This document shows positions 46,603-49,490 of a stretch of DNA of 64,000 bases, one piece after another. Within the stretch, counting starts at the first letter, position 1. Each line of letters opens with the position of its first letter. The DNA is taken from assembly GCF_009914755.1 (NCBI RefSeq), contig NC_060936.1. One strand, given 5' to 3'. Position numbers and translations under genes: made by a program. This DNA comes from the human T2T-CHM13v2.0 reference genome, Homo sapiens. The notes under the pieces were generated by a model. It ran no database searches, had not been told where the DNA came from, and was given only the letters and a program-made list of their open reading frames with translations.

Positions 46603-47975
46603 TGACTTTTTGACTCTCCTTTTGATTTCTTCTTTGACCCATTGGTTTTGTCAGGAGTATATTGTTTACTTTCCATGTATTTGTGAATTTTTAAATTTCC
46701 CTCCTATTATTGATTTCTAATTTTATACCATTGTAGTTGAAAAACATGCTTGATATGATTTTAACATAGTTGGATTTAACACTTAATTTTGTGGCCTAAC
46801 ATATGTTATATTCTGGGGAATGCTCTATGTGTACTTGAGAAGGATATGTTTTCTGCTGCTGTTGGATGGATGTTTCATATAGTCTGTTATTTGCTCTATA
46901 CTCTTATTCAGGTCTAATGTTTTCTTATTGACAGACTGTTTGACCTATCCATTGTTAAAAGTGGGGTAGTAAAGTCCTCTCTTGTTATTGTATTGCTGTC
47001 TGTTTCTCCCTTCAGTTCTGTTAGTATTTGCTTTATATTTTTAGGTGCTCTAAGGTTGGATGCATATATATTAATACATTTACAATTGTAATATTCTCTT
47101 GATGAATTGACCCATTTATTGTTGTATAATAACCTTGTCTCTTGTGACTGAAAGTCTATTGTGTCTGATATAAGTAAGCCCATTTCTATTCTTTTTTGGT
47201 TACCATTTCCATGGAATATCTTTTTCTATCCTTTTGTTTTCAGCCTGTGTGTGTCCTTACAGCTAAAGTGAGTCTCTTGTAGCCAACATATTGTTGGATA
47301 CTTAAAAAAGTCTGTTAGCCACTCTGTATCTTTTGATTGGAGAATTTAATCCATTTAAAGTAATTATTGATAGTTAAGGCCATTTTGTTGTTCTCTGTTT
47401 TGTAGGTCCTTTGTTCCTTTCTCTCTTGCTGCCTTCCTTTCTGATTTGATTTTTTTTTTTGTAATTGTATGCTTAATTCCTTTCTATCTTTTATATGTTA
47501 CTGGAGGTTAGTTTTCTTTGTGGTTACTATGAGGGTTACATAAGATATCTTAGGCTGTTTTAAGGTTGTAATAACTAAACTTTAATTACCTACAAAAATT
47601 CTGCAATTTTATGTCTCCCTCCTTCACAGTTTATGCTATTGATGTCACACTTTACATCTTTTTATATTTGTGTACCCATTGACAAATTATTGTAGCTATA
47701 GTTATTTTTATACTTTTGTCTTTTAACTTTTATGCTAGTTAAAATTGATTTATGTACCACGATTACAGCATTGCAGTATTCTGAATTTGACTGTATATTT
47801 ATTTTTACCAGTGAGTTTTATACTTTAATGTGTTTTCATGTTTTTATTTAGTGTCCTTTAGTTTCAACTCAGCTCCCTTTAGCATTTCTTATAAGGCAGG
47901 TCTAGTGCGATGAACTCTGTCAGCTTTTGTTTGTCTGGAAATGTCTTTATCTCATCTTTATTTCTGAAGAACAAC

Positions 47976-48340
47976 TTTTTTTTTTTTCCCTCTGATGGCA
48001 CCTCTGACTCCTTGATATTGTATTATTTGTTTCTCAGAGAAGTAAAGCAATTTTTTTTTTGAGACGGAGTCTCGCTCTGTTGCCCAGGCAGGAGTGCAGT
48101 GGCATGTTCTTGGCTCACTGCAATCTCTGCCTCCCGGGTTCTAGCGATTCTCCTGCCTCCGCCTCCCAAGTAGCTGGGACTACAGGCGCCCGCCACCACG
48201 CCCAGCTAATTTTTGTATTTTTAGTAGAGATGGGGTTTCACTGTGTTAGCCAGGATAGTCTTCGATCTCCTGACCTCATGATCCACCCACCTCAGCCTCC
48301 TAAAGTGCTGGGATTACAGGCATGAACCACTGTGCCCAGC
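47976..48340 (-). mobile_element. AluSc/Y-like element with a 63-nt extra 3' segment and second poly(A)
   Basis: TSD aacaacttt at 47970-47978 and 48341-48349 encloses T12, unique 47988-48050, T10 and the Alu. Confidence 0.88.
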
Positions 48341-49490
48341 AACAACTTTCTTATGTATAATATTCTTGGCTGGCAGTTTTTGTCTATTAGCACTTTGACT
48401 ATATCATCTCATTCCCTCCTGATCTGCAAGGTTTCTGCTGAGAAATCCACTGATTGCCTTGGTGGTGGTGGTAATGGTGGTGTGTATGTGTGTTGCGGGT
48501 TTCCTTGTATTATAGGTTGCTTTTCTCCTGCTGCTTTCAAAATTTCCTCTTTGCCTTTGATTTTTCAGAATTCAATTATAATGTGTTTCAGTGTAATTTT
48601 CTTTGACTTGAGCTTTTGAGCTTCATGAATCTAGATGTCTGTATTTCTTTCAAGATTTGAGAGATTCTCAGGCAACAGACATTCATTTACGTGAGCTAGG
48701 TATTTCTTCTATTCTCCTGTTGGGACCTTGGTAATGCACATGCTCATTCATTTAATGCTGCATCGGAGCTTCTGTATGCTTTTGTCGTTTTTAATTCACT
48801 TTTCTCTTTAGTTTCTCTAACTGGATAATTTTAAACGATGTGTGTTTGAGTTCCCTGATGCTTTCTTCTGCATAACTGAGTTTCCTATTGAAGCTATTAA
48901 TTTTTTTTTTCAGTTGTCAGTGTATTCTTCAGTTTCAAGATTTCTGTTTGGTTCTTTAGAGTTTCTATTCCTTTATTAAACTGTTTGTTTTGTTCATGTA
49001 TTGTTTTCCTAATTTTTGTTGAGTTTCCTGATTTTTGTTTCTGGGTTCTCTTGAGTCTCATTGAGCTTCTTTAGGATGATTATCTTTAATGCCATCAGTC
49101 ATTTCATGTATCTCCATTCCTTTGTGATCAGTCATAAGGGCTTTATTGGTTTACTTCGGTGATGTGTTATATAACTGTAAACCGAATACATGGAAAAATA
49201 AAAAAAAAACAATAGAAAAATAATTAGAATTAGCAAGAGCGTTTAACAGGTTTTCTAGATAGAATACCCATATAGGGGAATCATGTTCCTGTTTATATGC
49301 CAGCAAATAGCCACTAGAAAATGTAATTTTAAAAAGTTACTAAAATAATTTATTCAGGAAAAGTTCATTAGTGCATGGAGCCATTAGGTGAAAGGTTGAT
49401 AAAAGGTGAACTCTACACACAGAAGAGACCAGGCTGTCACTGCCTTGATGCACTAGTTAATCTTAGCCTCTTTAAGAGTGAGAAAACCAA

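What the first reader, a model, noticed from the sequence alone, without database searches (positions are those of the whole stretch)
47970..48349. Apparent Alu-mediated 3' transduction
Seen: on the - strand the insert reads Alu, A10, 63 nt of unique sequence (TTGCTTTACTTCTCTGAGAAACAAATAATACAATATCAAGGAGTCAGAGGTGCCATCAGAGGG), then A12. All of it lies between copies of AACAACTTT, and the host L1 sequence appears continuous once the insert is removed. The extra segment has no TTTT Pol III terminator and contains the variant poly(A) signal AATACA ~30 nt before the second A run. Established: 3' transduction is common for L1 and SVA but rarely documented for Alu. Inference: a read-through Alu transcript was primed at a downstream A tract, so the tag should identify the source Alu and any sibling insertions.
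Basis: partly seen in the sequence, partly recalled or inferred. Interest (0 to 1): 0.72.

Follow-up and report, generated by a model that had tools for sequence, protein, structure and literature searches.

The report
Alu tail copied neighbouring Alu's flank
An Alu repeat in a human ERC1 intron carries, inside its A-tail, a 63-base piece that matches the DNA just behind a different, older Alu 80 kb away, likely copied in tail-to-tail by DNA repair rather than carried along by the Alu itself, so it imitates a rare 'Alu transduction'.

Summary
The structure is real: TSD, Alu, A10, 63-nt tag, A12, TSD, inside a continuous old L1.

The same-subfamily condition fails. The two Alu bodies are 79% identical and differ at six lineage markers. 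They differ at 28 of 217 non-CpG sites against 2 of 63 in the tag, and the donor lacks the acceptor's last 13 nt. The copied tract starts at the shared A10. The tag stops 41 nt short of the donor's TTTT, and an AATACA-type signal occurs in about 30% of random 63-mers.

Best reading (0.5): a break in the existing Alu's A-tail was repaired by copying from the nearby Alu's tail. Rivals: template switch during insertion (0.25), a second retro-insertion into the tail (0.13), true transduction followed by gene conversion (0.08). Primate orthologues would decide and were not available.

The parts
47970..47978 (+). Target-site duplication, copy at the Alu 3' side (12 nt, 47970-47981, if one mismatch is allowed)
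47976..47987 (-). Second A run (A12); 3-6 A belong to the TSD, the rest is inferred to be the distal part of the acceptor Alu's own tail
   Evidence: origin inferred
47988..48050 (-). 63-nt tag, copy of G000:C12:1306630-1306692 (-), the unique 3' flank of a donor Alu 80,642 nt away (outside the window, in ERC1)
48051..48060 (-). A10 run, the junction; the donor Alu's tail is also A10 (microhomology)
48061..48340 (-). Acceptor Alu body, full length; carries the 2-nt deletion and five further markers of the younger lineage but not the three Y-type states (AluSc8-like; name recalled)
48341..48349 (+). Target-site duplication, copy at the Alu 5' side (48341-48352 as 12 nt; nick context TCTT/AT)
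47560..47969 (-). Old interspersed-repeat host (75-80% identity to relatives; L1 by recalled resemblance), continuing on the other side of the insert from 48350

Best explanation
The 63-nt tag is a copy of the DNA behind another Alu 80.6 kb away, likely inserted into the A-tail of an already resident Alu by DNA break repair. Shown: one donor, same chromosome and strand, the copied tract starts at the shared A10, and the Alu bodies are of different lineages. Inferred steps: (1) the acceptor Alu inserted by ordinary L1-driven TPRT, giving the TSD and a tail of about 16 A or fewer; (2) the tail later broke, possibly at an L1 endonuclease nick (the tail boundary reads TTTT/GA); (3) the Alu-side end ending in A's paired with the donor's A10, perhaps helped by 79% Alu homology, and was extended about 60 nt into the donor's unique flank; (4) it was released and rejoined to the rest of the tail, by end-joining or after a slip back to the donor's own end (CAG-AGG-A10, which the junction CAG-AGGG-A12 resembles). 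The TSD then belongs to the Alu alone, and both A runs are tail.
For: One other copy among 2 candidates, 80,642 nt away; random placement that close has p about 5e-5, which favours a template in cis. The donor flank is unique over 664 nt and continuous, so the direction is donor to window. Alu bodies: 79% identical; 65 of 88 unselected Alus are closer to the acceptor than the donor is; 28/217 non-CpG differences against 2/63 in the tag, Fisher p=0.035; the acceptor shares 2 of the donor's 23 non-CpG departures, one a state common in other Alus. Copying at the donor's birth predicts 11-12 tag mismatches, P(<=2)=0.0005-0.0013, so the donor was already old. No near-identical Alu that could have overwritten either body was found: best non-self 87% for the donor (40 of 5848 scored), 90-91% for the acceptor (40 of 4229), 93-94% for its mutation-rich 86 nt (40 of 2546). 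Precedent: Pace et al. PMC2671141 list acceptors inside Alus and a 75-bp donor 81,584 bp away.
Against: No outgroup was available, so it is not shown that the Alu is older than the tag. Tag divergence (2/63, 95% CI 0.4-11%) also fits copying at the Alu's insertion (P=0.185). Pace et al. class only donors under 5 kb as confident repair duplications, and 59% of their sampled interchromosomal cases had poly(A)/T tracts of retrotransposition. The tag is in Alu sense and followed by an A run, as TPRT would leave it. In the simple reading the distal junction has no microhomology. The slip-back reading rests on a 3-nt word that is common in this flank. The genome searches score only 40 candidates.
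Confidence: 0.5

Rival explanations
1. One event: during TPRT of the acceptor Alu, ORF2p switched template to or from local DNA or nascent RNA at the donor locus and returned to the Alu RNA at the A10.
For: One TSD encloses everything, and the parts are in sense orientation. Dating allows it (P=0.185). [quoted passage not shown]
Against: It needs a template from 80 kb away that also happens to adjoin an Alu tail. The donor-strand RNA would be antisense to ERC1, and no minus-strand gene is listed inside the window or as the nearest gene after it. The tag is somewhat less diverged than expected (2 against 4.4).
Confidence: 0.25
2. A second, RNA-templated L1 insertion: a short adenylated RNA from the donor region was retro-inserted into the resident Alu's tail, 5'-truncated at the donor's A10 by microhomology, with its TSD hidden in the A runs.
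For: The tail boundary is an endonuclease-type site (TTTT/GA). There is an A run after the tag and AATACA 31 nt before its end.
Against: AATACA-type signals are at chance level (28-32%). The tag end does not match the donor's TTTT. A diffusible RNA would land within 80.6 kb with p about 5e-5.
Confidence: 0.13
3. True Alu 3' transduction from the donor locus, with one of the two Alu bodies later replaced by gene conversion.
For: The tag begins exactly with the donor's TSD behind an A10. Hoyt et al. (10.1101/2021.07.12.451456, passages) invoke locus conversion for 231 of 700 subfamily-mismatched transductions.
Against: It needs two rare events plus local landing. The donor was old when copied. 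No converting Alu was found for either body. There is no A tract at the tag end in the donor, and TTTT lies 41 nt further on. Long unique tails and high divergence lower Alu activity (PMC3412727, passages). A survey of 118,489 AluY confirmed no transduction (10.1101/2024.04.29.591526).
Confidence: 0.08

Closest known systems
Repair-mediated duplication by SDSA (Pace et al. 2009, PMC2671141)
   Same: Short (63 nt) single-donor copy on the same chromosome, inside a transposed element, with microhomology at one end
   Different: The donor is 80.6 kb away (their confident class is under 5 kb). The acceptor is an A-tail and the donor tract starts at another Alu's tail, so the product is flanked by A runs and an inherited TSD. 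It was not found in their Table S1.
Alu 3' transduction (Hoyt et al. 2021 preprint; Halabian et al. 2024 preprint)
   Same: Alu, A run, unique tag, A run, inside one TSD; the tag maps directly behind another Alu
   Different: Source and offspring Alus are of different lineages, the donor was old when copied, and there is no downstream A tract to prime on
ORF2p template-switch chimeras and templated insertions (PMC13174262; PMC11702581)
   Same: Two sense-oriented pieces within one TSD at an endonuclease-type site
   Different: The 3' partner here is intronic unique DNA from 80 kb away, not an abundant RNA; co-insertion is untested

Membership tests
Alu 3' transduction | Alu and tag within one TSD | tested here: met
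Alu 3' transduction | Tag lies directly 3' of another Alu, same orientation | tested here: met
Alu 3' transduction | Source and offspring Alu are the same subfamily and share private changes | tested here: not met
   79% identity, six lineage markers differ, 28/217 non-CpG differences
Alu 3' transduction | Pol III terminator lies beyond the tag at the source | tested here: met
   first TTTT at +104, tag ends at +63; weak, 65% of 63-mers lack TTTT
Alu 3' transduction | Templated A tract or true poly(A) site at the tag end | tested here: inconclusive
   no A tract in the donor; AATACA at chance level
Alu 3' transduction | Alu and tag arrive together (outgroup empty site) | not testable with these tools
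   no primate genomes held (no relatives)
Repair-mediated duplication (Pace 2009) | Insert of 50 nt or more found at exactly one other place | tested here: met
Repair-mediated duplication (Pace 2009) | Donor within 5 kb (their confident class) | tested here: not met
   80,642 nt; falls in their distant group, which holds an 81,584-bp case
Repair-mediated duplication (Pace 2009) | Microhomology, filler or deletion at breakpoints | tested here: met
   A10 shared at the proximal junction; distal junction blunt or 3-nt slip
Repair-mediated duplication (Pace 2009) | No added poly(A) tail | tested here: inconclusive
   A12 follows the tag; it may be the host Alu's tail plus TSD
Repair-mediated duplication (Pace 2009) | Acceptor element pre-dates the insert | not testable with these tools
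   dating compatible with either order

The most novel reading that the evidence does not exclude
Alu A-tails act as landing pads for tail-to-tail capture in cis: a broken or ORF2p-nicked tail pairs with a neighbouring Alu's tail and copies its 3' flank. This route would be general and would account for many catalogued 'Alu 3' transductions' whose parent and offspring subfamilies disagree.
Probability: 0.3. Interest if true: 0.65.

Novelty: new variant of a known kind. Interest (0 to 1): 0.4.

Why it matters
Whether Alus transduce flanking DNA is disputed: one CHM13 catalogue lists 386 high-confidence Alu 3' events, and a later strict AluY survey confirmed none. This locus passes the usual hallmarks (TSD, A run, tag mapping behind another Alu) with a real unique tag, yet the Alu did not come from the apparent source. 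It gives a concrete way for false transductions to arise and a simple test: are subfamily-mismatched cases enriched for nearby same-chromosome donors with the junction in the A run? No function for the 63 nt is suggested; it is deep intronic.

Tried and rejected
Tag as part of the host L1: no match in 14 relatives.

Siblings: 24 places match a 20-nt core at up to 2 mismatches (reversed control 9). Only 2 are exact; of the other 22, the 18 fetched align over 32 nt or less, and 4 were not fetched.

Donor flank as a repeat family: only self and the window copy.

Tag present first, with the Alu inserted later in front of it: the Alu has no TSD of its own ending at the A10.

Extended homology between acceptor and donor flanks as a pairing aid: reached by 10.6% of random 40-mers, rejected.

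Assembly artefact: unlikely, as the copies differ at 2 of 63 positions and in their Alus.

The first divergence figures (76%, 35/227) wrongly counted donor tail columns and were redone.

The bacterial promoter scan is not applicable. Paper searches returned nothing. Earlier scan findings were not available.

Full report
OBSERVATION. On the minus strand the insert reads Alu (48340-48061), A10, 63-nt tag (48050-47988), A12, between exact 9-nt repeats at 48341-48349 and 47970-47978. With one mismatch the repeat is 12 nt and the nick context becomes TCTT/AT instead of CTTT/CT; TCTT/AT is closer to the TT/AAAA endonuclease motif cited, so up to six of the A12 may be TSD. The host is an old repeat with thousands of candidates at 75-80% identity (the label L1 is by recalled resemblance). 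Of 14 fetched relatives, 13 match both flanks, and in L009, L010 and L014 the alignments meet with the TSD-sized overlap. The tag is not in those relatives.

ORIGIN OF THE TAG. The genome search gave 2 matches of 2 candidates: the window itself and C12:1306630-1306692 (-), 61/63 identical, 80,642 nt away and within the ERC1 span (repeated with the A runs included). There the sequence follows the A10 tail of another Alu. Its first 7 nt are the end of that Alu's TSD (A-run plus CTGCTTT upstream, TTGCTTT downstream). It runs on into unique DNA (664 nt, only self and the window copy). So that locus is the donor. A 20-nt pattern gave 24 places at up to 2 mismatches, with 2 exact; the 18 of the other 22 that were fetched do not extend. 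No siblings were found, within the limits of searches that skip common words.

THE ALU DID NOT COME FROM THE DONOR. I aligned 119 near-full-length Alus from the window and held loci. The acceptor has the 2-nt deletion at columns 63-64 and the younger-lineage states at 77, 88, 95, 100 and 164; the donor has none of these. The acceptor lacks the three states at 198, 201 and 220 typical of the 28 Y-like copies. From memory these are AluSc8-like and AluSx/Sq-like; the names come from no call. Over columns 1-269 the two are 79% identical, and 65 of 88 unselected Alus (94 of all 117) are closer to the acceptor than the donor is. Non-CpG differences are 28/217 against 2/63 in the tag (Fisher p=0.035). 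The acceptor shares 2 of the donor's 23 non-CpG departures: column 154, the majority state of the acceptor's relatives, and column 15, seen in 9 of 117 others. The donor lacks the last 13 nt of the Alu, which the acceptor has, so shared sequence starts at the A10 (match begins at query base 16).

TIMING. The donor is 21/219 diverged at non-CpG sites from the majority of its group. Had the tag been copied at its birth, 11-12 mismatches are expected; P(<=2) is 0.0005-0.0013. The acceptor is 8/229 diverged; copying at its birth predicts 4.4 mismatches, P(<=2)=0.185. So the copy was made when the donor was already decayed, at or after the acceptor's insertion. These two cannot be told apart here.

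GENE CONVERSION RESCUE. If either body had been overwritten after the copy, a near-identical partner should exist. Best non-self hits were 87% for the donor (40 of 5848 candidates scored), 90-91% for the acceptor (40 of 4229) and 93-94% for its mutation-rich 86 nt (40 of 2546). None of 117 held Alus shares more than 2 of the acceptor's 8 private changes. This is negative evidence from partial scoring, and conversion by a then-young Alu would leave no such trace.

RNA SIGNALS. The donor has no A tract at the tag end, and its first TTTT is at +104, 41 nt further on. AATACA ends 31 nt before the tag end, but a hexamer from a recalled 13-motif list lies 10-40 nt from the end in 28% of shuffles and 32% of random 63-mers; 65% lack TTTT.

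MECHANISM. A random template lies within 80.6 kb with p about 5e-5, so the template was probably in cis. The copy starts where the two Alus share a perfect homopolymer. The most economical model is a break in the resident Alu's tail, pairing of the A-ended strand with the neighbour's tail, about 60 nt of synthesis, and rejoining (0.5; all steps inferred). The distal junction CAG-AGGG-A12 differs by one base both from the donor's onward sequence (CAG-TGGG) and from the donor Alu's own end (CAG-AGG-A10). A slip back would template the second A run, but 3-nt matches of this kind are frequent in the flank, so this is only a possibility. Rivals are a template switch during the Alu's own insertion (0.25), a second retro-insertion into the tail (0.13) and true transduction plus conversion (0.08). 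Against the best reading: no outgroup, an A run and orientation that suit TPRT, and a distance outside the confident class of Pace et al.

LITERATURE. Pace et al. PMC2671141 (parts 1-2 of 8, passages, Table S1 searched and part 13 of 15 read): 824 of 1,136 duplicons lie within 5 kb and 58 further on the same chromosome. In part 13, 11 of 16 same-chromosome rows are under 100 kb, one a 75-bp donor at 81,584 bp. ERC1 has 0 hits in the table. I saw 72 of 102 chr12 places, including all in the distant sheet, and none is near this locus; places 31-60 lie in the under-5-kb sheet and were not viewed. Halabian et al. 10.1101/2024.04.29.591526 (parts 1-2 of 3): no confirmed transduction among 118,489 AluY; their rules (AluY only, gap over 70 nt, same subfamily) would likely exclude this locus. 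Hoyt et al. 10.1101/2021.07.12.451456 (passages): 386 Alu 3' events, and 231 of 700 events of all types with subfamily mismatch. Their Table S13 could not be seen and may list this locus. PMC3412727, PMC13174262, PMC11702581 and PMC4888836: passages only. A search for ERC1 with Alu, transduction and retrotransposition found 0 papers; searches showed no listing that describes this locus or tail-to-tail capture. The library lacks most subscription journals.

VERDICT. Real feature, donor identified, but not a member of Alu 3' transduction on a defining test. It works most like a repair-mediated duplication guided by Alu A-tails. It is a single, probably neutral intronic event, of interest mainly as a mimic that bears on an open dispute. 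Interest 0.4.

Noticed in passing
L002:1564-1575 (G000:C12, about 1306693-1306704): The donor Alu lacks the last 13 nt of the Alu body before its A10 tail and has a 3-nt deletion in the right arm.
   Followed up: partly
L002, about 545-605: A perfect head-to-tail duplication of about 28 nt in unique DNA, seen by eye.
   Followed up: no
window 48461-48495: A GGT/GT microsatellite in the host repeat coincides with a gap in the alignments to most relatives.
   Followed up: no
window about 49150-49215: Composition switches from T-rich to A-rich with an A run, probably the end of the host repeat fragment or a junction to another element.
   Followed up: no
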